A DNA stretch of 64,000 nt from Escherichia coli. GTDB lineage: Bacteria; Pseudomonadota; Gammaproteobacteria; Enterobacterales; Enterobacteriaceae. Position numbers and translations under genes: made by a program. Where the stretch lies: the NCBI GenBank assembly GCA_029351405.1, contig GCA_029351405.1_4841.1. One strand, 5' to 3'. Under the pieces are notes generated by a model. That model saw only the letters and a list, made by a program, of their open reading frames with translations. It did not search any database and had not been told where the DNA came from. Shown here in pieces: positions 4,900 through 63,302 of this stretch (position 1 is the first letter of the stretch; each line of letters opens with the position of its first letter).

Positions 4900-5112
4900 A
4901 TGATCATTTCAGGTTACACTATCGATCTTTATTGTGAATGCTCAGATTGCAAGGCATGCAGTTGGGCTTGGGAAGAGCATCACCCCAAGTGCGGGTTCAA
5001 ACAATACACTGGTGAGACTTGGGGTGAGTGTGTCAAACAGGCGCGAGCAGACGGCTGGCAAATTGGGCGCGACAGGCATACCTGTTACGCCCCTGGCCAC
5101 AAGAGAAGTTAA
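4900..5112 (+). CDS. small cysteine-rich protein
   Basis: 70 aa with CEC-x2-C-x3-C and later Cys/His residues; possible zinc binder. Confidence 0.4.
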   Translation: MIISGYTIDLYCECSDCKACSWAWEEHHPKCGFKQYTGETWGECVKQARADGWQIGRDRHTCYAPGHKRS

Positions 5113-5723
5113 GGTAAGAGTAGTCCATCATCCCGCTCCGTTGGGGCGGGTTTAATCTCCTTCCGCATCTGTTCCTTCAGCACCCTGACACGTTCGGCAT
5201 GTCGGCGATCTTGCATCTCCATATCCCGTTTCTTTTTCGACTTCAATTCGAACTGTTTACGAACATCCGGATCTTCACCTGGAACAAGATGCTCTTCAGT
5301 CCAGATAATGAACTTCCAGTTCTTCTTGGCACACAGTTCGCGGGTGGCCTCCCACTTGGCAGAATTGACCAACCAGGTTCGCATCGCATTGTTGAATGTC
5401 GACTCCTTCATGTTCGGAGTCTTCTTCGGCTGCTTGATCTGGTCTTTGGGCTTGATCTCAATGAGGGTGACCTGTAGTTCATCTTGCCCTTCACGGCGCG
5501 TCCAGACCTTGAGGTCCATGAAGTAACGATGGGTGCGCCCGTCGACTGGGGAAATGTAAGGGATTACGGTCTCCTCACTAGACCACTTCACTATCGCGGA
5601 GTTCATATCACAGAACTTGAAAGCCACCAACTCCAGCGAAGAGCGGAAGATGATGTTATTCACATTCCCCTGATACTTCTTGGGATTAACTGGGGTGTAC
5701 TTCCCCTGAAGATAGTTGCTCAT
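5109..5723 (-). CDS. head completion protein, gp4-like (putative)
   Basis: N-terminal pattern KYTPVNPKKYQGN...IIFRSSLE...WSSEE..IPYISPVDG..HRYF.D...IEIKP recalled as typical of T4 gp4-family proteins; basic C-terminal tail. Confidence 0.45.
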   Translation of the reverse strand: MSNYLQGKYTPVNPKKYQGNVNNIIFRSSLELVAFKFCDMNSAIVKWSSEETVIPYISPVDGRTHRYFMDLKVWTRREGQDELQVTLIEIKPKDQIKQPKKTPNMKESTFNNAMRTWLVNSAKWEATRELCAKKNWKFIIWTEEHLVPGEDPDVRKQFELKSKKKRDMEMQDRRHAERVRVLKEQMRKEIKPAPTERDDGLLLP

Positions 5724-5731
5724 AATCTAGT

Positions 5732-5739
5732 CCTAAATA
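5732..5739 (+). promoter_or_regulatory. late-promoter-like box (CCTAAATA) upstream of baseplate gene
   Basis: TAAATA core 34 nt upstream of ATG at 5774, same spacing as exact TATAAATA boxes elsewhere in window. Confidence 0.35.
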
Positions 5740-5773: not shown

Positions 5774-6742
5774 ATGGCCGACTTCAAGAAGACAATCGAT
5801 AAGATCAAGGTTCTGAACACGAAGGGATTGTCCCAGGCTCAGAAGCAATTGTCTTATCCCCTGGACGTTACTGGGGGTAAAACCTTGGGACACTATGTCC
5901 TATTCAACATCAACCGCATCTCCGGTTCATCTTATGGCAACACGGCTACTCAGACTATCGAGAACCCAATACAGAACCCTCTGGGGAATACTCCTGTGGT
6001 CTATGGGTCCAAGTCTGGTTCCATCACCAAATATGCATGGGCGCGTCACGTTCGTTCAAACGAATCTATTGTTCTGTGTATGCCGGAGTCCATTACAACC
6101 AACTATGGCGTTGGCTGGAACGGTAGCGAGCTGGGGCTGGCTGGTATGGGGGCACAGTTCCTTTCCCGCGCCGCCCAAGACATGACTCAGTTTAAACTGG
6201 GTGATGCGCTCAACGTCGGGAAGGAGATGGGGAGATTCGCTGCCACCAAGGCTATCCAATCTGCGTCGGAGGCTATTCCATTCCTGCCGAGCATTAACGC
6301 CCATGACACCCTTGAGTTGTTCACAGGCACCATGACCAACCCATATGTGGAGATGATCTTCCAGGGTGTACGCAACCGTGAGATTCCATTTACATTCAAA
6401 TTCACGCCGCGATCTCAGAAGGAAGCCAAGATGGTCCGTGAGATCATCCGCATGTTCAAGATGCACATGTACCCAGAGTACAAGTACAACAAGAACTCCA
6501 GTGCCTTCTATCTGCATCCATCGACCTTTGATATCACGTTCATGGTCAATGGTGAGCGTAACCAATGGCTCCACCGCATCTCCACCTGCGTGCTGTCCAA
6601 CATGTTCGTCAACGAAACGCCGGACAGTTCATATGCAGTACACAAGGATGATGGGATCGTATCTACACAGGTTGACATGACCTTCATCGAACTGGAGCCT
6701 CTGCATAAAGGGCGCTTTGAAACCGAAGGCGATAGCTTCTAA
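5774..6742 (+). CDS. baseplate / tail-tube-associated structural protein (gp48/gp54-like, tentative)
   Basis: 322 aa, first gene of a plus-strand structural operon ending in a tape-measure-like gene; family call tentative. Confidence 0.4.
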   Translation: MADFKKTIDKIKVLNTKGLSQAQKQLSYPLDVTGGKTLGHYVLFNINRISGSSYGNTATQTIENPIQNPLGNTPVVYGSKSGSITKYAWARHVRSNESIVLCMPESITTNYGVGWNGSELGLAGMGAQFLSRAAQDMTQFKLGDALNVGKEMGRFAATKAIQSASEAIPFLPSINAHDTLELFTGTMTNPYVEMIFQGVRNREIPFTFKFTPRSQKEAKMVREIIRMFKMHMYPEYKYNKNSSAFYLHPSTFDITFMVNGERNQWLHRISTCVLSNMFVNETPDSSYAVHKDDGIVSTQVDMTFIELEPLHKGRFETEGDSF

Positions 6743-6753
6743 GAGAGGATGCC

Positions 6754-7308
6754 ATGAAATATTTTGAGAAGTTTCCACTTGTTTGGCATCAATTGCAAGA
6801 TGTCCAAGAGAATGATCAGGTGCTGTTACAGAACTTAACGCGCCGGGTGATGATCTTACAGAAAATTAAGGACATCGAAGGGCTTCTCCTGCCGTATACG
6901 ATCCAAGAGGGGGAAACCCCAAGGTCTTTCGCGGAACGCGTTTACGGATCCTTCGAGTTGTTTTGGATACCTTGTCTGATAAATGGCATCATGGACATCA
7001 ATAAGGACTGGCCGAAACCGGAACGCCGTATTATTGAAGAACTGACTGCAGATTATGGCATCGATGGTATGTGGGATACAGCCTATTATGTCGACCAGTT
7101 CAACAATGTGACCGACGCCCGTGCTATCAAATTTGCATATAACCTAGACCTGGATGAGCCGTCCATAATTGCTAACTATGGCCTGACGGCAGTTTCATAC
7201 CATGATGATGCAATCAGTAAGAATGAAGCCAAACGGAACATCCAAGTACTCGACCCAGATTATGTGTCTTCGTTTGTCAATCAGCTGGAGCAGGAGTTGG
7301 CGAAATGA
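6754..7308 (+). CDS. structural-operon protein (baseplate hub-associated, tentative)
   Basis: 184 aa ORF between baseplate genes; overlapping stop/start with next gene. Confidence 0.35.
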   Translation: MKYFEKFPLVWHQLQDVQENDQVLLQNLTRRVMILQKIKDIEGLLLPYTIQEGETPRSFAERVYGSFELFWIPCLINGIMDINKDWPKPERRIIEELTADYGIDGMWDTAYYVDQFNNVTDARAIKFAYNLDLDEPSIIANYGLTAVSYHDDAISKNEAKRNIQVLDPDYVSSFVNQLEQELAK

Positions 7309-8693
7309 TCGAAAACAGAGAGACCCAAGACGGTATTGTAACACCGTCAACAACATTTGACCTGAAGTATATGGCGATCCTCCCTCATACACCCCAGGGT
7401 GGATCACCAACGCCATATGACCTGACGGCGTTGTTTGAGGAGTTCAACGTCTTCCAGGATCTGGGTCTTGAAGGGAAGTCATCTCCATCACTTACAGCCA
7501 ATGTCTTGATAAAAGAGGGGTGGGACATTCTTGACACAATGCCTATCTTGGGTGGTGAAGAAGTTGTGGTGTCATTCAAGAGTCCGGCGGCCTCGGAATA
7601 CACCACTCTCTCCCTGCGCGTAGCGCGTGTTGGGCGCGTAGCTGATGAGTCCAACAGCTCGTCCAAGAAAGCATTCTGGTTGCACATGGTGACCACCGAT
7701 GCCTATAAGGACAGCATGATCCGCTGCTCCCTCGGTCTTGACGGTTCGTATTCTGACATGGCAAAGGTAATCTTCAATCAGCTGGAGTCGCGCACCAAGT
7801 TCGAAGACATCGACCCGTCGTATGGTATTCAAGAGCGGTTCGCCACCCCGCTCTGGCCTGTGCTGCGATCTATTGATTATATGGCGAGCCGTTCTTATGA
7901 CGAATTGTTCATGCCATTCGTGTTCTATGAAGACTTCAATGGCTATCACTTCAAGAGCCTGACGACGTTGTTCAACCAGGGCAGCCAGTCATTGACAGCA
8001 GAAGAGAAGCAGGAACTAGCTCAGCAGAACAAGTTGTTCCGTGATCCTCAGGACGCGCCGCTCATGCAGGATAACAACTTCAACTCTGAGCGCTTTATGC
8101 GCACGATCATCAAGGCAGAGAAGAAGCTGGCGCGTGACCAGTTCATGGCAAATTACCGTGACGTCCTGGCGGTGAACGAGCGTGTCTACGACTTTGAGAC
8201 CAAGACAGTCACCCCAACACAGCGCATCTATACTGAGTGGTTTGCAGAGACGGCTCACCTTGATCCGTTCCCGATGTTCTCAGATGAATTCAATCGTCAG
8301 AACGTCCGTTACATTGAAGCCCAGCCGGATGGAGCGGAGCAGATTGATTATGCTCGTCGTGTTATCAACTTCAGTCTTGCCAGCACTGTGATGCGCGTGT
8401 TGCTCGTTGGTGATAACCGCCTGAACGTCGGTCAGGTGTTCTACGTCGAAGACCAGTCCAACCGTCCTAAGAAGAACGAAAACCTGGCAGAGTTAAGTAA
8501 GCTATCGACAGGCCACTATATCGTGACCAAAGTGCGTCACAAAATTTCCCGCCTGACCAAAGATTATCAGTGCATCGCTGAGATTGCCAAGGACAGTTTG
8601 CTGGAGCAGGTGCTTCCACCTCAGACCAATCAGACAACTGCTTCCACCACTACTCCTCAGGCGATTGAGAAAGGCCAAGCACAGAAGGTTTAA
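7305..8693 (+). CDS. baseplate hub protein (gp27-like, tentative)
   Basis: 462 aa, precedes tape-measure-like gene; size and position fit hub subunit. Confidence 0.35.
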   Translation: MIENRETQDGIVTPSTTFDLKYMAILPHTPQGGSPTPYDLTALFEEFNVFQDLGLEGKSSPSLTANVLIKEGWDILDTMPILGGEEVVVSFKSPAASEYTTLSLRVARVGRVADESNSSSKKAFWLHMVTTDAYKDSMIRCSLGLDGSYSDMAKVIFNQLESRTKFEDIDPSYGIQERFATPLWPVLRSIDYMASRSYDELFMPFVFYEDFNGYHFKSLTTLFNQGSQSLTAEEKQELAQQNKLFRDPQDAPLMQDNNFNSERFMRTIIKAEKKLARDQFMANYRDVLAVNERVYDFETKTVTPTQRIYTEWFAETAHLDPFPMFSDEFNRQNVRYIEAQPDGAEQIDYARRVINFSLASTVMRVLLVGDNRLNVGQVFYVEDQSNRPKKNENLAELSKLSTGHYIVTKVRHKISRLTKDYQCIAEIAKDSLLEQVLPPQTNQTTASTTTPQAIEKGQAQKV

Positions 8694-27881: not shown

Positions 27882-27899
27882 CGGGGTAATTATACCCCG
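27882..27899 (-). promoter_or_regulatory. GC-clamped hairpin (GGGGTATAATTACCCC) in gp32 leader
   Basis: Stem CGGGG/CCCCG, loop carries TATAAT-like sequence; about 70 nt upstream of gp32 ATG. Confidence 0.4.
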
Positions 27900-39647: not shown

Positions 39648-40442
39648 TTAACTGAAACTCTTGTATGCTGCTGCGAGCTTCGTGTCGTACTGGTTCTTGG
39701 CATACGCCGGACCATTATAGCGCCGCGCAAACTCAGCCCAGTTCTTGTCCTTCAGAGCCTGCCAGAGCTTGGCGTCAGCCTTGATGAACTTCACGAATGC
39801 CATCAAATGAGCACGTTCTCCTGTCAGGAAGTCGTTGAACATCTCCTTGGCGTTGGCATATCCACAGACCTGGCAGTTGAATCCCATGATCTGGAAGAGA
39901 CCGTAAGAGGCGCTCTCGTACGCACAATCCTCGTCGATGTTGATCGCTGCATGAAGTCGATCCAACTCCGCGTCGCCGCCCGTGTACCCGCCTGCGGAAG
40001 GGCTGACCAACGTCGGGTACATATGTCCCATGGCATTCGCCCGAGCCTGTCCGAACTTCGCCATCAGCTTCTTATACATGATGTGGCGCTCAAATAATGT
40101 CTTGATCTTACCTGATTTGGTGAAGCCCGTGCCGCGCGACTCAACCTGATTCACCGCCTTGACAGAGGCAAGGTCAACACCCAGATCGTTAGCAGCATCA
40201 ATCAGGTCTGACTCAGTTAGATGATCCTGATGGGCGTCTCCGGCGTTGCGAATAGCATAGGAGGTCTTTGGACCCACGATACCATCAATGACAAGTCCCG
40301 CACCCGCCTGAACCGTCTTGACGGCGTTCTCTGTTACCTTGCCAAAGATACCATCAGCGACGAGGGTGAAGCCGATTTTGTTGAGGCTATTCTGAAGTGC
40401 CTTCACTTCAGTGCCACGGTTGCCAAGTTTTAGAATGGCCAT
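39648..40442 (-). CDS. endolysin: peptidoglycan-binding domain plus N-acetylmuramidase-like catalytic domain
   Basis: N-terminal PG_binding_1-like repeat (LKLGNRGTEVKALQNSLN ... DGIFGKVTENAV ... DGIVGPKT); C-terminal domain with EYESASYGLFQIMGFN-type motif; start at Met with GGAGG ribosome-binding site. Confidence 0.7.
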   Translation of the reverse strand: MAILKLGNRGTEVKALQNSLNKIGFTLVADGIFGKVTENAVKTVQAGAGLVIDGIVGPKTSYAIRNAGDAHQDHLTESDLIDAANDLGVDLASVKAVNQVESRGTGFTKSGKIKTLFERHIMYKKLMAKFGQARANAMGHMYPTLVSPSAGGYTGGDAELDRLHAAINIDEDCAYESASYGLFQIMGFNCQVCGYANAKEMFNDFLTGERAHLMAFVKFIKADAKLWQALKDKNWAEFARRYNGPAYAKNQYDTKLAAAYKSFS

Positions 40443-59279: not shown

Positions 59280-59335
59280 GATATAGTCACTCAAATGAAA
59301 GGGCAGCTTTATGATAAGCCGCCCGAGGTTATTGA

Positions 59336-60205
59336 TTATTGGAAATCGCCAACATACATGTTCAGCTTGTCGTCCCAATTCAGAACGACACGGATCGTTC
59401 CGGTATCTTCTGGGAAGGTCAGTTTGTCACACATGGCGCGATTAACATAAGTCCCGCTCTGGTTGACGTTGTAGTCCTTGCCTTGCATGATACCAAAACG
59501 CTTGAAGTCGCGAGTGACCATCATGTTCAACGTGGTCCACGGAATGATGTCACGCAAGGCTTTGCACAGGACGATCTTGCCATCCGACCTGAACGACACA
59601 AACAGCTCGTTGGCGATACGACGGCGAGTAGGCGGTTCAAGTTCACGCAGGGAAATGAATTGTGAATTCTTTACCTTTTCTGCCAGCGCCTGTACTTCTG
59701 CTGGATCCGGCTTGAACGGCTCCACTGAAGAGTCAGACTTCATCACAACATCACCCTTGCGCTTCTCAACCAATTGCTTCACAGCCTTTTGACTCACGGG
59801 CGGGAGGTATTTGGACTTAGGAACAACCGCTGGCTTGATGACAGGGCTTGCATCTGGTTTCGCCTTTGGGGTACTCCGAGCCGCACGCAGCTTTTCCTGG
59901 GCTTGTAGAATGCGCTCTTGACGAGAAAGCGGAGCCTTTGGGGTGATCTTCGTACTGAAGTCAGAAACTCCGACCCAGTCACCCTGGTCGTTGCGCTTGG
60001 CGACCAGAGTCAGTTTGTGGATGATACCCTGAAGTTTGCTCTCACGTAAGTTGTCGGCATACCAGAACTTCGCGCCCATCTCGAACTTCTCGGCGAAGAT
60101 CACGCGAGCGTCTTCGTGTACCAACATAACTTTGGCTGCGTTGGGGGCAAAAGCCTTATTCTTTTCGATAATCGCCGCAGCGATTGTTTTGGTCAGGAGC
60201 ATCAC
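59336..60205 (-). CDS. hypothetical protein
   Basis: 289 aa ORF with Pro/Lys-rich linker. Confidence 0.45.
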   Translation of the reverse strand: MMLLTKTIAAAIIEKNKAFAPNAAKVMLVHEDARVIFAEKFEMGAKFWYADNLRESKLQGIIHKLTLVAKRNDQGDWVGVSDFSTKITPKAPLSRQERILQAQEKLRAARSTPKAKPDASPVIKPAVVPKSKYLPPVSQKAVKQLVEKRKGDVVMKSDSSVEPFKPDPAEVQALAEKVKNSQFISLRELEPPTRRRIANELFVSFRSDGKIVLCKALRDIIPWTTLNMMVTRDFKRFGIMQGKDYNVNQSGTYVNRAMCDKLTFPEDTGTIRVVLNWDDKLNMYVGDFQ

Positions 60206-60241
60206 AGTGTATTCCTTCAGTTCACAATGTAGGGCTAAATT

Positions 60242-60571
60242 TTAACCCGAAACTTTATTTTGAAATCCGACAAAGTCCTGGGCAATTCCCCGGCAATACA
60301 TCAGGTCTTTCTTCGTTTGTGCACTGTTGTCAGCCGCAGTCAGCATCATGGGAAGGTCCAGCGCATTCTCTATCTGATCAACACTGAACAGATCAAGGCG
60401 CTTCAGCTCTCCCTCGAAGTCAGACAGTAGGATAGATGTGTCTTTGTCATCTGGGTGGAACTGCTGATACGTCTCCATCCATGCCACACATGTGTTCAGT
60501 TTGGACGGTGGCGCAGCGTTTACACACCCGGCTATCAGTACCAACAAGAGCAGGATTTTACATTTCATCAC
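60242..60571 (-). CDS. lipoprotein
   Basis: Signal peptide with lipobox (MKCKILLLLVLIAGC). Confidence 0.55.
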   Translation of the reverse strand: MMKCKILLLLVLIAGCVNAAPPSKLNTCVAWMETYQQFHPDDKDTSILLSDFEGELKRLDLFSVDQIENALDLPMMLTAADNSAQTKKDLMYCRGIAQDFVGFQNKVSG

Positions 60572-61254
60572 TCGTTCTCCTTCATCATATTGTCGCAGTC
60601 AACGCGAGTCTGCTGGAGTTCGCGTGACATGCGAGGATCATCAAGGTTCACGCTCAGATTCGTGGCCAGGTCTTTCAGACCGTTCTGAACCCTGTCTTCA
60701 AAGTAATAATCGTTCTCAACCAACCAGGCTCTGAGACCGAGAGCGCGAGTGCGCCATTCCTTCTTCAGGACGCGATCAGAGGTCTGCGTAGCGCTGTATT
60801 CGAATACTTTGATGCACTGGTTGCCATCGTTGATAAGGTTCAGGTGGCGGCGACCAACCTGCACACCCTTCTGTAATGCCGGAGAAGGGAGCGAACGACA
60901 CTGTCTTACGGTCATTCGGCCTTGGGTGCCCATACGCCCAGTCATGATTAAATCGCCAGCCTCCATGCCTCCACGGTTAAATTCGTCGTCATTGAGGTAG
61001 CCCTTGAGGTTATAGGCTCCCTGTTTGTAACGGTTGAACTCAATTCCGGCATTGACGACAGCAGTGGAGACGTTGCCTGTGTTCCAGAGTTCAGCGAAGT
61101 TCTCTATGGAACCAGACTTGTCGATGGCAACCGCCTGGGAGAACCCAGCACAATAGGAAAGGTCGGACCACAGTTTATCACCTGTGGAGTTCAGATTGGC
61201 AGCGGCGGGTAATGCCAGACCAGCCAGCACAACCCCGAGGATTAAACGTTTCAT
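60568..61254 (-). CDS. exported (periplasmic) protein
   Basis: Start at Met with AAGGAG ribosome-binding site; cleavable signal peptide MKRLILGVVLAGLALPAAA. Confidence 0.5.
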   Translation of the reverse strand: MKRLILGVVLAGLALPAAANLNSTGDKLWSDLSYCAGFSQAVAIDKSGSIENFAELWNTGNVSTAVVNAGIEFNRYKQGAYNLKGYLNDDEFNRGGMEAGDLIMTGRMGTQGRMTVRQCRSLPSPALQKGVQVGRRHLNLINDGNQCIKVFEYSATQTSDRVLKKEWRTRALGLRAWLVENDYYFEDRVQNGLKDLATNLSVNLDDPRMSRELQQTRVDCDNMMKENE

Positions 61255-61333
61255 GGTGATTCTCCTTATTTCATTGGATGAAATGATAGGCGGCTCACCA
61301 TGTTGAGTAAAGGGTTTCAATAAACTATCGTAT

Positions 61334-61783
61334 TCAGAAACGGGTATCGCTGACCGTTCTGTATCGCACACCCTGAAACTGTTTAGCGAGTTTAACAAAT
61401 TCCATCGCTGGTAAATCAACTTTGTAGACCTTCATGCGCTGTTTGCCGTCCATGTTCAACGCAGCGACAAATCGGTGTGAGCCGTCAACAACGTAATTGT
61501 CAGAAGACACCCAAACCCGACCCATAGGTTTCTTATTTCTGATGTTCTTCATGATCTTCCAGACCTTCATCTTGTTGATTTCGTTCTGGGTAAGACGAAG
61601 CATTTTGATGGGCACTTGCGCAGCATCTATGGACACGCCGTTGTCTTCAAGATATTTGTGAAAATCTTCTTGTTTGTCGGCATCGATTTGCGGCATAGAA
61701 GAACGAGAAAGCCCGAGGTTCCCAACAGGAATCCTCAGGCCGTTAATGATGTTCAACCAGTCAATAAAAGATGTAAGGAACAT
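61334..61783 (-). CDS. ParB/Srx-like nuclease-domain protein (putative)
   Basis: DGSHRFVAA motif resembling the DG-x-HR signature of ParB N-terminal / sulfiredoxin-fold domains. Confidence 0.4.
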   Translation of the reverse strand: MFLTSFIDWLNIINGLRIPVGNLGLSRSSMPQIDADKQEDFHKYLEDNGVSIDAAQVPIKMLRLTQNEINKMKVWKIMKNIRNKKPMGRVWVSSDNYVVDGSHRFVAALNMDGKQRMKVYKVDLPAMEFVKLAKQFQGVRYRTVSDTRF

Positions 61784-61815
61784 GACACACCTCGGGATAT
61801 AGGGTTATCCCTTAG

Positions 61816-62007
61816 TTAGCGCATCCATCGATCCTTTCTCTCTTTCTCCTTGCGTTCGCGACGTTTCTGGTCGGATCGGAATAACCAATAGAAGAAGTTC
61901 CCACCCAAGATGAAAACCACCGCGATTATTACTAGGACACCCTTCACAATTTCCCAAACCAATTCTTTATCCAAATTACACCTCGTCTTCTTCAGGTCCA
62001 CCGTCAA
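61816..62007 (-). CDS. small membrane protein
   Basis: 63 aa, one TM helix (VLVIIAVVFILGGNFFYWLF) then basic tail. Confidence 0.35.
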   Translation of the reverse strand: MTVDLKKTRCNLDKELVWEIVKGVLVIIAVVFILGGNFFYWLFRSDQKRRERKEKERKDRWMR

Positions 62008-62263
62008 TCAGGATACGAGCGGTGTCGAAAGTTTCCCCACCCGTGTTCAACAGCTTGGTTAGATCATCAAGAGTACCGACAGGACCAAGATCAGCCTGGC
62101 GGAGAACGAACTCTAGAAGCCCGTAGAGCGCTGATTGGAAACGGGAGTTGTCGATATCGTTCTTGACTTCCATCAGGCGGACAACATTGGCAGACTGGAC
62201 ATAACTCAGCTGAGTCTTACCTTTTGCCATGTCTTTCACGGAACGGCGTTGTTCAGGCGTCAT
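61976..62263 (-). CDS. hypothetical protein
   Basis: 95 aa ORF. Confidence 0.4.
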   Translation of the reverse strand: MTPEQRRSVKDMAKGKTQLSYVQSANVVRLMEVKNDIDNSRFQSALYGLLEFVLRQADLGPVGTLDDLTKLLNTGGETFDTARILIDGGPEEDEV

Positions 62264-62637
62264 AATGTTCCACCCCCGACAGAGATCAAGAACTCTTCTT
62301 GCATGGTCTTGACCGGGTGGTGGTTTCGGATTTCGATCATGAAGCCCCAGCCGCCGTCGGCGACGTTGCCAAAGGTCTTGACGCCAAAGGACTTCGTCCC
62401 GTTGGAGCAGGAATAGATGTCCAGGACGTATGGGCTACCCTGATTGTCGATCCCACGATTCACGTCTTCTGATACGCAGCGCTCAATCATCTTCCCGTTC
62501 TTATACAGAACGAGGTCTTGGCCATACGCCTTGAAAGCATAAACACCGTTGGTAGACACTCCGGTGATGACAGGAGGGGCGGAAACAGCAGCAAAGGAAG
62601 CGCCTAGCAGGGCAACAGCGAGGATTAACTTTTTCAT
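62260..62637 (-). CDS. exported small protein
   Basis: Start at Met in AGAGACTATATCATG cassette; signal peptide MKKLILAVALLGASFAAVSA. Confidence 0.5.
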   Translation of the reverse strand: MKKLILAVALLGASFAAVSAPPVITGVSTNGVYAFKAYGQDLVLYKNGKMIERCVSEDVNRGIDNQGSPYVLDIYSCSNGTKSFGVKTFGNVADGGWGFMIEIRNHHPVKTMQEEFLISVGGGTL

Positions 62638-62655
62638 GATATAGTCTCTTGGTTT

Positions 62656-62677
62656 CAAATGGGCGGGGTATGATTAC
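62656..62677 (-). promoter_or_regulatory. GC-clamped hairpin (GGCGGGG-loop-CCCCGCC) upstream of initiation cassette
   Basis: Perfect 7-bp stem with 8-nt loop immediately 5' of TTGAAA-N3-AGAGACTATATCATG. Confidence 0.4.
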
Positions 62678-62689
62678 CCCGCCGTGGGT

Positions 62690-63196
62690 TTATAGAGTAA
62701 CAAGTGATACGGTAAAAACCATCGTCCCGTCTGTTGCCATTTTTCTTGAAACTGGTATGACGCGAGGCTGGCAGAATATCCATTCTTTCTCCATGGACGC
62801 CAAGTCCAGCATATCCATTTCTGATTCATCGCCTTTGTTCACAAATTTTTCTAGAGAACCATAGACATTAAGCCCCTCCGGGAGTCCGTTTCGATGTTTG
62901 TAACAAATGCGGGCAACAGCTTTGGTTCCGTACGATTTAGAAAATTGTTTGGCCACATGCTTCAGTTCACTGAAGCTAAGACAAGAATCCCATGTCTGGA
63001 ACATGTCGCCTCGTTCAAACATCATCTCTAAACGCGCAACGTCCTCTTTAGGCAGCCCGCGATAAAGTGTGGTCGTCTGTGGTTCGCGTAATTCTTGCAC
63101 CAGATCACGGACGGCAGGGGAAACAGTACCGGGGCGCATTATGTGGGACTTATCATGGACGAGGTAAAATAAATCTTGAATTTGTTGATCGGTCAT
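62690..63196 (-). CDS. hypothetical protein
   Basis: Start at Met in AGGAACTATACCATG cassette; no motif. Confidence 0.45.
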   Translation of the reverse strand: MTDQQIQDLFYLVHDKSHIMRPGTVSPAVRDLVQELREPQTTTLYRGLPKEDVARLEMMFERGDMFQTWDSCLSFSELKHVAKQFSKSYGTKAVARICYKHRNGLPEGLNVYGSLEKFVNKGDESEMDMLDLASMEKEWIFCQPRVIPVSRKMATDGTMVFTVSLVTL

Positions 63197-63218
63197 GGTA
63201 TAGTTCCTGCATTTCAAA

Positions 63219-63241
63219 TAGACGGGGTAATCATACCCCGC
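63219..63241 (-). promoter_or_regulatory. GC-clamped hairpin (GGGGTA-loop-TACCCC) upstream of initiation cassette
   Basis: Same stem as hairpin at 62656..62677 with loop inverted; immediately 5' of the cassette for 62690..63196. Confidence 0.4.
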
Positions 63242-63302
63242 CCAAAGTTATAGAATTAACTGATGTGCTTCAGAAGAGCGAAGAGGATCGCGGCCTTGGC
63301 CT

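What the first reader, a model, noticed from the sequence alone, without database searches (positions are those of the whole stretch)
60242..62637. Cluster of exported proteins interleaved with a ParB/Srx-like nuclease-domain protein
Within about 2.4 kb are a lipoprotein with a clear lipobox (LIAGC), a 228-aa signal-peptide protein, a small single-TM protein and a 125-aa signal-peptide protein. A ParB/Srx-like protein (DGSHRF motif) and an unknown 95-aa protein sit among them. Envelope-targeted proteins in this arrangement in virulent phages often mediate superinfection exclusion, spanin-like lysis functions or receptor masking. None resembles a known family by eye.
Basis: inference. Interest (0 to 1): 0.5.

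Follow-up and report, generated by a model that had tools for sequence, protein, structure and literature searches.

The report
Exported protein pair mislabelled as spanin
In this Vi1-like (Ackermannviridae) phage the flagged genes are real exported proteins plus a ParB-fold protein whose Dickeya-phage counterpart is carried in the virion, but they are not one system, and the conserved exported pair that databases call a "spanin" lacks the membrane anchors a spanin needs, so its role is still unknown.

Summary
The window comes from an Ackermannviridae (Agtrevirus-like) phage.

- **Conserved core:** only three genes are kept family-wide, in the order ParB-like, 228-aa protein, small partner.
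- **ParB-like protein:** its LIMEstone1 orthologue was found in virions by mass spectrometry. It has a different recombination history from the pair.
- **The pair:** the 228-aa protein and the lipoprotein are co-translated (1–4 nt overlap in every relative). Phage Marshall annotates them as i-/o-spanin, and PHROGs labels the small one "Rz-like spanin".
- **Why the spanin label fails:** the 228-aa protein has a short h-region and an invariant AxA cleavage site in all homologues, so it is probably released into the periplasm. The partner has a lipobox in only 6 of 36 family representatives.
- **Expression:** a conserved sigma-70/T4-early-like promoter precedes the pair, and no T4-type late promoter lies nearby.

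My best reading, which is an inference, is an early periplasmic complex, tethered to the outer membrane in this clade, that protects or excludes at the envelope. The accessory genes (125-aa, 95-aa, 52-aa) are variable. Interest is moderate to low.

The parts
60242..60568 (-). Small partner protein, 108 aa. Here it is a predicted outer-membrane lipoprotein (LIAG|C, +2 Val). The mature domain is about 90 aa, acidic (pI 4.4) and has two conserved Cys.
   Evidence: Sequence. PHROG 3843, E 1e-54. Family alignment with invariant C27 and C92. Lipobox in only 6 of 36 cluster representatives. It is the only credible lipobox ORF in about 150 kb of a closely related genome, 93.6% identical over the query region.
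60568..61254 (-). 228-aa exported protein with a cleavable Sec signal peptide and four invariant Cys. Its stop overlaps the partner's ATG (TGATG).
   Evidence: A17 and A19 (positions -3 and -1) are invariant. Distant homologues show HASA|A, ANA|G and VHA|R. The family has only 10 representatives among 1.84 billion proteins. The AF2 model is poor, pLDDT 41.
61283..61311 (-). Sigma-70/T4-early-like promoter candidate (TTTACT-17-TATCAT) in the 79-nt gap ahead of the 228-aa gene.
   Evidence: The -35 and -10 elements and the 17-nt spacing are kept while the spacer sequence diverges in a Klebsiella relative. A single window match is not above chance on its own.
61334..61783 (-). 149-aa ParB/sulfiredoxin-fold protein, basic (pI 9.9), with an invariant DGSHR motif and no export signal. 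Its orthologue is a virion component.
61816..61974 (-). 52-aa single-pass membrane protein with a TTG start, a short N-terminus and a very basic C-tail. It is an accessory gene.
   Evidence: PHROG 14464 'membrane protein'. The CBA120 and LIMEstone1 loci have no such TM protein at this position. A weak Pfam holin hit at E 0.064 is not significant.
61976..62263 (-). 95-aa acidic protein with no signal peptide, so presumably cytoplasmic. Function unknown.
   Evidence: PHROG 4458. Homologues are present in LIMEstone1, CBA120 and L004 but not seen in the Klebsiella, phiMAM1 or Bue1 loci.
62260..62637 (-). 125-aa exported protein with a signal peptide and two Cys. It is an accessory gene whose stop overlaps the 95-aa gene's ATG (ATGA).
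   Evidence: PHROG 5474. Present in LIMEstone1, Marshall and a Klebsiella phage, absent in CBA120.
62634..62683 (-). Repeated cassette: a GC hairpin, then ATTTGAAA, an SD-like element and CTATATC-ATG, ahead of the 125-aa gene. A second copy at 63193-63242 sits ahead of the ART-like gene.
   Evidence: Direct repeat D1, 76% identical, and inverted repeat I1. Hairpin motif search found 3 against 0.05 expected. Start contexts.
62690..63196 (-). 168-aa Alt-like ADP-ribosyltransferase, just outside the finding. It is bracketed by the two cassette copies.
   Evidence: PHROG 832, E 5e-16, matching the C-terminal part of a 1480-position profile. LIMEstone1 has denV in this slot.

Best explanation
The region is a mosaic stretch of an Ackermannviridae genome, not a single device. 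It contains three kinds of gene.

(1) **A stand-alone ParB/sulfiredoxin-fold protein.** Its LIMEstone1 orthologue is packaged into virions. It probably binds a nucleotide in its DGSHR pocket and acts on DNA or another phosphoryl acceptor soon after entry. The fold and the orthologue's packaging are shown. The activity and the delivery are inferred.

(2) **A family-wide conserved, translationally coupled pair.** The pair is the 228-aa protein plus a small acidic partner. Both are exported by Sec and probably disulfide-bonded, and they probably form a periplasmic complex. In this sub-clade the small subunit has acquired a lipobox, so the complex would hang from the inner face of the outer membrane. 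The pair has its own conserved sigma-70/T4-early-type promoter. I therefore think it is made early and guards or modifies the envelope from the periplasmic side. Examples would be blocking cell-wall penetration by superinfecting relatives, or protection from lysis-from-without, analogous to T4 Spackle or T5 Llp. I do not think it fuses the membranes at lysis. Export signals, coupling and conservation are shown. Complex formation, timing and the exclusion role are inferred.

(3) **Variable accessory genes.** These are the 125-aa exported protein, the 95-aa cytoplasmic protein and the 52-aa membrane protein. They sit in cassette-flanked swappable slots.
For: **Identity and synteny.** The region is 96-97% identical to Agtrevirus-like phages and has the same gene order.

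**ParB fold.**

**Virion presence of the orthologue.** The LIMEstone1 record flags it as a 'confirmed structural protein'. Table 2 of PMC3296691 lists a 17.31 kDa protein with 35.6% coverage and 5 peptides, matching the computed 17.30 kDa. Solo and polyvalent-protein ParB domains are described as packaged phage effectors in PMC5512222.

**The pair.**
- There is a 1- or 4-nt overlap in the window and in all 7 comparators.
- The order ParB, 228-aa, partner is kept even at 30-35% identity.
- The -3/-1 Ala residues and all Cys are invariant.
- The partner's signal region diverges (22-63% identity) while the mature domain is more conserved in the closer genera (71-94% in LIMEstone1, CBA120 and the Klebsiella phage). 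In the distant comparators the two regions are similarly divergent.
- Both genes are on the Vi01-like core-gene list.

**Promoter.** The elements are conserved while the spacer has diverged. An early promoter is annotated upstream in LIMEstone1. No TATAAATA occurs within one mismatch in 57-64 kb, although the motif is enriched elsewhere in the window.

**Separate histories.** ParB is 97% identical to CBA120 and 84% to LIMEstone1, whereas the 228-aa protein shows 89% and 95%.
Against: - There is no experimental or homology evidence for any function of the pair. Pfam, NCBIfam and PDB profile searches are empty, and AF2 failed on the 228-aa protein.
- Exclusion genes are usually variable, whereas this pair is core. 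That fits an essential step such as lysis at least as well.
- T4's own spanin genes are not late-only, from my own knowledge, so an early promoter does not exclude a lysis role.
- Ackermannviridae have no other spanin candidate.
- Signal-peptide cleavage is predicted, not measured.
- Virion packaging of the ParB protein rests on one proteome of an 84%-identical orthologue. It was not reported in the Sajous1 virion list.
Confidence: 0.4

Rival explanations
1. The 228-aa protein and the lipoprotein are a genuine two-component spanin, as annotated in phage Marshall. The 228-aa protein would stay in the inner membrane through its uncleaved N-terminus, the lipoprotein would sit in the outer membrane, and the complex would fuse the membranes at the last step of lysis.
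For: - Marshall carries i-/o-spanin annotation from a lysis-specialist group, and PHROG 3843 carries the 'Rz-like spanin' label.
- The gene architecture is overlapped, with the lipobox ORF directly downstream.
- It is the only credible lipobox ORF in about 150 kb of a closely related genome.
- Both genes are core genes.
- The LIMEstone1 record notes a coiled coil in the 228-aa homologue.
Against: - The 228-aa protein has a 12-residue h-region and an invariant AxA site in all homologues, including those at 30-35% identity. The LIMEstone1 record notes a signal peptide.
- The partner lacks a lipobox in 30 of 36 representatives, including CBA120, LIMEstone1, Klebsiella phages, phiMAM1 and Bue1.
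- The same authors list Vi01, CBA120, Maynard, SFP10 and AG3 as spanin-less. They list Marshall as a singleton with the longest periplasmic span, 300 residues.
- The C-terminal helical half is missing in phiMAM1 and Bue1.
- The N-terminal half is Gly/Asn-rich and not coiled-coil-like.
- There is no late promoter, and the endolysin is about 20 kb away.
Confidence: 0.1
2. The pair is a non-canonical lysis factor: either an anchor-independent outer-membrane or cell-wall-link disruptor, or a periplasmic regulator of lysis timing comparable to the T4 RI antiholin. It would explain how 'spanin-less' Ackermannviridae complete lysis.
For: - The pair has core-gene status across the family.
- No canonical spanin is found in relatives.
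- It is the only conserved exported pair in this region.
- The endolysin is cytoplasmic, with no SAR or signal sequence, so a holin-dependent pathway with periplasmic partners is plausible.
- rIIA and rIIB are present.
Against: - Neither mature protein is cationic or amphipathic like a disruptin; net charges are -1 and -6.
- There is no linkage to the endolysin or to any holin candidate.
- The promoter is early-type and no late promoter is present.
- There is no homology to RI, RIII, T or any lysis protein family.
Confidence: 0.2
3. All six genes form one envelope-directed system in which the ParB/Srx protein is an integral enzymatic component.
For: The genes are tightly packed on one strand, with two overlapping gene junctions (ATGA, TGATG) and a 1-nt gap. 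ParB is always directly upstream of the pair.
Against: - ParB has no export signal, is basic, and its orthologue is virion-associated.
- The three accessory genes are absent or replaced in relatives.
- ParB and the pair show discordant identities to relatives, which implies recombination between them.
- A separate promoter precedes the pair.
- Gene order is strongly conserved genome-wide in this family, so adjacency is weak evidence.
Confidence: 0.05

Closest known systems
Two-component spanins (lambda Rz/Rz1, T4 PseT.3/PseT.2), specifically the 'Marshall' singleton family of Kongari et al. 2018
   Same: Adjacent, overlapping genes. The second encodes, in this phage, an outer-membrane lipoprotein with a canonical lipobox. 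Both products face the periplasm. The window's proteins are nearly identical to Marshall gp94 and gp95.
   Different: The first protein carries a cleavable signal peptide rather than a retained type-II anchor. The lipobox is absent from most orthologues. The combined periplasmic length is the largest in the spanin survey. There is no sequence similarity to any experimentally tested spanin, and no linkage to holin or endolysin genes.
T4 Spackle (Sp, gp61.3) and T5 Llp: phage-encoded periplasmic or outer-membrane-lipoprotein exclusion factors
   Same: Small exported proteins made by virulent phages. They carry conserved Cys pairs that suggest disulfides, and are soluble periplasmic (Spackle) or outer-membrane lipoproteins (Llp). 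The probable early expression also fits. This resemblance is analogy from my own knowledge.
   Different: There is no sequence similarity: a PDB-wide profile search with the partner family returned no significant hit. Here there are two co-translated subunits. The pair is core to the whole family. No target has been identified.
DdrB-like and solo ParB/Srx domains of phage polyvalent proteins (Iyer et al. 2017); phage P1 DdrB
   Same: ParB/Srx fold with the conserved Arg pocket. Phage-restricted. Found either alone or embedded in 700-1300-aa multidomain phage proteins. Virion association is reported for the LIMEstone1 orthologue and for P1 DdrB.
   Different: Pfam ddrB-ParB and ParBc_2 are not matched significantly (E about 0.07-0.08, each in 1 of 23 members). 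It has a distinctive N-terminal extension with an invariant PxGxL..R..MPQ motif. It is not next to late structural genes.
Sulfiredoxin, SbnI/SerK kinases and ParB CTPases (cellular ParB/Srx enzymes)
   Different: Identity is 10-18%. There is no HTH or DNA-binding module, no catalytic Cys and no ParA partner. The activity is untested.

Membership tests
i-spanin (two-component spanin, inner-membrane subunit) | N-terminal transmembrane domain that is retained (type II, N-in/C-out) | tested here: not met
   The h-region is only about 12 residues and is followed by Pro and AxA. A17 and A19 are invariant in 21 sequences while the core varies. Distant homologues show HASA|A, ANA|G and VHA|R. The LIMEstone1 record notes a signal peptide. 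This is prediction, not biochemistry.
i-spanin (two-component spanin, inner-membrane subunit) | Periplasmic domain dominated by coiled-coil helices | tested here: inconclusive
   The AF2 model has low confidence (pLDDT 41). Helices lie mainly in residues 140-227, and the N-terminal half is Gly/Asn-rich. The helical half is absent in phiMAM1 and Bue1. The LIMEstone1 record notes a COILS hit.
o-spanin (outer-membrane lipoprotein subunit) | Lipobox with Cys and an outer-membrane sorting signal | tested here: met
   LIAG|C with +2 Val and +3 Asn in the window, AV101, vB_CECAV_050 and Marshall.
o-spanin (outer-membrane lipoprotein subunit) | The lipid anchor is a conserved property of the orthologous family | tested here: not met
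   Only 6 of 36 90%-cluster representatives have a lipobox, and a 92%-identical one has Ser in place of Cys. CBA120, LIMEstone1, the Klebsiella phage, phiMAM1, Bue1, L004 and L005 all have SPase-I-type signals.
Two-component spanin system | Adjacent, overlapped or embedded gene pair | tested here: met
   The stop and start share one base (TGATG). Relatives show 1-4 nt overlaps.
Two-component spanin system | Functional: needed for outer-membrane disruption, or complements lambda Rz/Rz1 | not testable with these tools
   I found no experimental report in the papers searched. Kongari et al. list most relatives as spanin-less.
ParB/sulfiredoxin superfamily | Characteristic alpha+beta core fold | tested here: met
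ParB/sulfiredoxin superfamily | Conserved Arg-containing phosphate-binding motif | tested here: met
   D100-G-S-H-R104 is invariant in 23 sequences down to 39% identity.
ParB/sulfiredoxin superfamily | Significant match to a curated sequence model (Pfam ParBc, ParBc_2 or ddrB-ParB) | tested here: not met
   The window protein has no Pfam hit at E<=0.1. Among the 23 members, ddrB-ParB scores E 0.073 and ParBc_2 E 0.081, each in one member. PHROG 1033 'ParB-like' scores E 5.8e-4.
Virion-packaged solo ParB-domain effectors (DdrB-like, polyvalent-protein class) | Present in purified virions | tested here: inconclusive
   The 84%-identical LIMEstone1 orthologue is a mass-spectrometry-confirmed structural protein. 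It is not listed in the Sajous1 virion proteome. There are no data for this phage.
Holin (for the 52-aa membrane protein) | Match to a holin family, or linkage to the endolysin | tested here: not met
   The only hit is Pfam Phage_holin_2_4 at E 0.064, below its cut-off. The endolysin is about 20 kb away. The CBA120 and LIMEstone1 loci have no such TM protein at this position.

The most novel reading that the evidence does not exclude
The conserved exported pair is the missing outer-membrane-breaching device of the 'spanin-less' Ackermannviridae. It would be a soluble, or only optionally outer-membrane-tethered, periplasmic complex that completes lysis without bridging and fusing the two membranes. 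That would make it a third solution alongside spanins and disruptin.
Probability: 0.12. Interest if true: 0.75.

Novelty: new variant of a known kind. Interest (0 to 1): 0.35.

Why it matters
Hundreds of Ackermannviridae genomes, many from phage-therapy and biocontrol candidates, carry an 'Rz-like spanin' or 'i-spanin' label on these two genes. The label appears to trace back to one topological call in phage Marshall. The comparison here shows that it fails the defining anchor requirements across the family.

That reopens a concrete question raised by Kongari et al.: how do these large virulent phages of Salmonella, E. coli, Klebsiella and Dickeya get through the outer membrane at lysis? It also identifies the pair as a core, orphan periplasmic module that can be tested directly.

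The ParB-fold protein adds a probable virion-delivered effector to a family in which no such effector has been characterised, as far as I know.

None of this is a new principle yet. It is an annotation correction plus a well-posed experiment.

Tried and rejected
**Searches that found nothing**
- Pfam and NCBIfam on all nine or ten local proteins gave nothing significant.
- Per-member Pfam scans of the three family alignments at E<=5 gave only scattered noise.
- PDB sequence and profile searches for ParB149 returned only non-significant hits (best E 0.36-0.96). The partner family returned one non-significant hit (E 0.49), and the 228-aa family returned none.
- An exhaustive HMMER search of 1.84 billion representatives with the 228-aa protein found only 10 clusters, and the two full-length distant ones lie on Ackermannviridae-like contigs, so no cellular relative is available to lean on.
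- I searched the literature for Ackermannviridae or Kuttervirus transcriptomes to time expression and found nothing relevant.
- No TATAAATA late promoter occurs within one mismatch in 57-64 kb.

**Analyses that failed or were uninformative**
- AF2 of the 228-aa protein with a shallow alignment (77-95% identity) gave pLDDT 41. I did not use it for a fold search.
- The generic terminator and promoter scan was not above shuffled expectation. Only the promoter ahead of the 228-aa gene gained support, from cross-phage conservation.
- The phiD3 proteome paper held no information on the ParB orthologue.

**Ideas considered and rejected**
- The 52-aa protein as holin or i-spanin. Its predicted topology is N-out with almost no periplasmic domain, the CBA120 and LIMEstone1 loci have no such TM protein at this position, and there is no significant family match.
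- A SAR endolysin needing a periplasmic inhibitor. The endolysin has a PG-binding plus muramidase architecture with no N-terminal hydrophobic segment.
- 'Cytidyltransferase', the label on the ParB homologue in two records. No tool result supports it.
Full report
**What the window is.** The region 59300-63300 is 96-97% identical to Enterobacter phage fGh-Ecl02 and to Escherichia phages AV101 and vB_EcoM-ZQ1. It is 93.6% identical to Salmonella phage vB_CECAV_050 (Ackermannviridae, Agtrevirus). About 276 phage records share it, nearly all named for enterobacterial hosts and every one I opened an Ackermannviridae genome. Gene order in the annotated relatives is the same as in the window. The order is: acyl carrier protein, a small PHROG-804 protein, an Alt-like ADP-ribosyltransferase, then the six genes of the finding, then two larger unknowns, an HU-like protein and a helicase. 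All lie on the minus strand, within a long block of replication and repair genes.

**Checking the observation.** All six ORFs are there.
- The lipoprotein (60242-60568, 108 aa from the ATG) begins MKCKILLLLVLIAG|C. The 228-aa protein's stop overlaps its start (TGATG).
- The 228-aa protein (60568-61254) begins MKRLILGVVLAGLALPAAA|N.
- The ParB-like protein is at 61334-61783.
- The membrane protein most likely starts at TTG 61974 (52 aa, GAGG five bases upstream), as annotated in AV101 and Marshall.
- The 95-aa protein (61976-62263) has no signal peptide.
- The 125-aa protein (62260-62637) has a signal peptide. Pro follows AVSA, so cleavage probably occurs two or three residues earlier.

SignalP and LipoP were not available, so I used a rule-based screen. 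Of 95 non-overlapping ORFs in the window it flagged 9, and only the four in this cluster look convincing to me. Five other ORFs elsewhere have TM-like segments. The clustering is therefore real but only modestly beyond chance; my rough estimate is about 0.01.

**The ParB/Srx protein.**
- Sequence models do not reach significance. The exception is a weak PHROG 'ParB-like' hit at E 5.8e-4, plus a strong hit to an unannotated PHROG whose 740-position profile contains this domain internally.
- An AF2 model built on 23 homologues down to 39% identity is confident, with pLDDT 82.
- D-G-S-H-R is invariant.
- In BFVD the same fold occurs alone (121-160 aa) in other phages and embedded in proteins of 700-1300 aa. 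That is the pattern Iyer et al. describe for ParB domains of virion-delivered 'polyvalent proteins' (PMC5512222).
- The LIMEstone1 orthologue is flagged 'confirmed structural protein'. Table 2 of the LIMEstone paper lists a 17.31 kDa unknown structural protein with 35.6% coverage and 5 peptides, and the orthologue's computed mass is 17.30 kDa.

**The exported pair and the spanin label.** Phage Marshall annotates the two genes as i-spanin and o-spanin. The small protein matches PHROG 3843 'Rz-like spanin', and RefSeq has spread that name widely. In Kongari et al. 2018, Marshall is a singleton family with the longest combined periplasmic length in the survey, 300 residues. The same paper lists Vi01, CBA120, Maynard, SFP10, SJ2, SJ3, PhaxI, ECML-4, phiSboM-AG3 and a Dickeya phage as spanin-less. 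The Ackermannviridae relatives I examined carry the same gene pair.

The comparison explains this inconsistency and undermines the label.
1. **The 228-aa protein looks cleaved.** In 21 homologues the two Ala at -3 and -1 are invariant while the 12-residue hydrophobic core varies. Homologues at 30-35% identity show HASA|A, ANA|G and VHA|R. The LIMEstone1 authors' SignalP run also called a signal peptide. This is the signature of a cleaved signal, not a retained anchor.
2. **The partner is rarely a lipoprotein.**
   - Only 6 of 36 cluster representatives have a lipobox, and all six are at least 95% identical to the window protein.
   - A 92%-identical one has Ser in place of Cys, and the rest end in AxA-type sites directly before the conserved (A/T)P..(K/N)LN.C start of the mature domain.
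   - CBA120, LIMEstone1, a Klebsiella phage, phiMAM1, Bue1 and two metagenomic relatives all lack the Cys.
   - Marshall has the window's lipobox version, which is why it alone passed the topological filter.
   - The window protein still keeps the ancestral SPase-I-type site (VNA|AP) just after the lipobox Cys.
3. **The helical half is dispensable.** phiMAM1 and Bue1 have only the N-terminal domain of the 228-aa protein, at 126 and 165 aa.

A system whose subunits are soluble in most members cannot work by bridging and fusing two membranes.

**What does hold for the pair.**
- The two genes overlap by 1 or 4 nt in the window and in all seven comparators.
- The order ParB, 228-aa, partner persists in relatives at 30-35% identity.
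- All four Cys of the large protein are invariant among the close homologues, three of them also in the two distant full-length ones, and both Cys of the small one are invariant family-wide. This is consistent with oxidised periplasmic folds.
- In the closer genera the partner's mature domain is far more conserved than its signal region: 71-94% against 30-63%.
- Both genes are on the 114-gene Vi01-like core list.
- The large protein's family has only 10 representative clusters among 1.84 billion proteins.
- Neither family has any Pfam or PDB relative.
- In about 150 kb of the closely related vB_CECAV_050 genome, the partner is the only credible lipobox ORF in any frame.

**Expression.** The 79-nt gap before the 228-aa gene holds TTTACT-17-TATCAT. 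Across Agtrevirus, Limestonevirus, Kuttervirus and a Klebsiella phage, the -35 and -10 elements and the 17-nt spacing are kept, while the spacer sequence differs in the Klebsiella phage. TTTAC resembles the T4 early -35 element; that comparison is from my own knowledge. LIMEstone1 has an annotated early promoter upstream of the cluster, and the window has a matching TTTACT-17-TATTAT at 63574-63546. The T4 late motif TATAAATA is enriched in the window, with 3 copies against 0.5 expected. No copy within one mismatch lies between 57 and 64 kb. I found no transcriptome for the family. Early or middle expression is therefore likely but not proven.

**Not one unit.** The 125-aa, 95-aa and 52-aa genes are variably present. 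ParB is 97% identical to CBA120 and 84% to LIMEstone1, whereas the 228-aa protein is 89% and 95%. This implies a recombination junction between them. The Alt-like gene next door is bracketed by two copies of a hairpin-containing cassette, and denV replaces it in LIMEstone1.

**Mechanism.** My preferred reading (confidence 0.4) has three steps.
- The ParB-fold protein is a packaged, nucleotide-dependent effector.
- The pair is co-translated, exported and oxidised, and forms a periplasmic complex, tethered to the outer membrane in this clade.
- That complex is made early and guards or remodels the envelope. It could, for example, act against penetration by superinfecting relatives or against lysis-from-without, which LIMEstone shows readily on non-hosts.

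The rivals are as follows.
- A non-canonical lysis factor (0.2). It is favoured by core status and by the lack of any other spanin candidate.
- A canonical spanin (0.1). It is disfavoured by both anchor tests.
- A single six-gene system (0.05).

The endolysin (39648-40442) has no signal or SAR segment, so an inhibitor of a secreted endolysin is not needed.

**Novelty and value.** The genes are already in hundreds of records, and the ParB fold is a new member of a known kind. The pair belongs to no characterised family and fails the one membership it has been given. If it works like Spackle or Llp, it is a new variant. If it is the family's outer-membrane breaching device, it would be a new class (probability about 0.12). 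As it stands, this is an annotation correction plus a clear experiment, so interest is 0.35.

Noticed in passing
window 62634-62683 and 63193-63242 (also a hairpin at 27883-27898): A 50-nt direct repeat (76% identical) brackets the Alt-like ADP-ribosyltransferase gene. On the minus strand each copy reads: GC hairpin (GGCGGGGTA-loop-TACCCCGCC), ATTTGAAA, an SD-like AGGAA, then CTATA(T/C)C-ATG. LIMEstone1 has denV in this slot. It looks like a swappable cassette, comparable to the T4 promoter-early stem-loops (that comparison is from memory).
   Followed up: partly
window minus strand: 34821, 47777, 59277, 62635 (exact); 63194, 55061, 25009, 15859 (one mismatch): The start context CTATATC-ATG recurs: 10 matches at up to one mismatch against 3.6 expected, 8 of them on the minus strand. 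Most copies have ATTTGAA(A/C) about 10 nt upstream. It may be a shared translation-initiation or regulatory operator, for example for the RegA-like repressor these phages encode. It remains unexplained.
   Followed up: partly
window 62690-63196 (-): A stand-alone 168-aa Alt-like ADP-ribosyltransferase (PHROG 832, E 5e-16) matches the C-terminal part of a 1480-position profile. By eye it has R (LYRG), S (LSFSE) and E-x-E (EKEW) motifs. Together with the ParB protein it may be a second solo version of a polyvalent-protein domain.
   Followed up: partly
window 61334-61783 versus 60568-61254: Identities to relatives are discordant: ParB is 97% identical to CBA120 and 84% to LIMEstone1, while the 228-aa protein is 89% and 95%. 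This implies a recombination breakpoint in or near the 79-nt intergenic promoter region.
   Followed up: partly
window 25790 (+), 44283 (-), 55066 (+): There are three exact copies of the T4 late-promoter motif TATAAATA against 0.5 expected. By offset to the vB_CECAV_050 annotation they appear to lie next to structural genes embedded in the early-gene block.
   Followed up: partly
window 39648-40442 (-): The endolysin has what looks by eye like an N-terminal peptidoglycan-binding domain plus a muramidase domain, with no signal or SAR segment. It lies about 20 kb from the cluster, and no holin is annotated in the relative's genome.
   Followed up: partly
L013 (CBA120) 6467-7467; L004 7028-8028; L011 (Bue1) 4954-5733: Relatives carry an SPFH/Band-7 lipoprotein, preceded in CBA120 and L004 by a 69-aa two-TM protein, between the pair and the HU gene. 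This pair is absent from that position in the window. The 106-157-aa protein labelled 'superinfection exclusion' in these phages has no export signal, so that label also looks doubtful.
   Followed up: no
L005 2745-3077 and 5782-6189: A distant relative has further exported proteins in the same neighbourhood: a 110-aa signal-peptide protein and a Phage_VG64 lipoprotein. This suggests the region is a general hotspot for envelope-targeted accessory genes.
   Followed up: no
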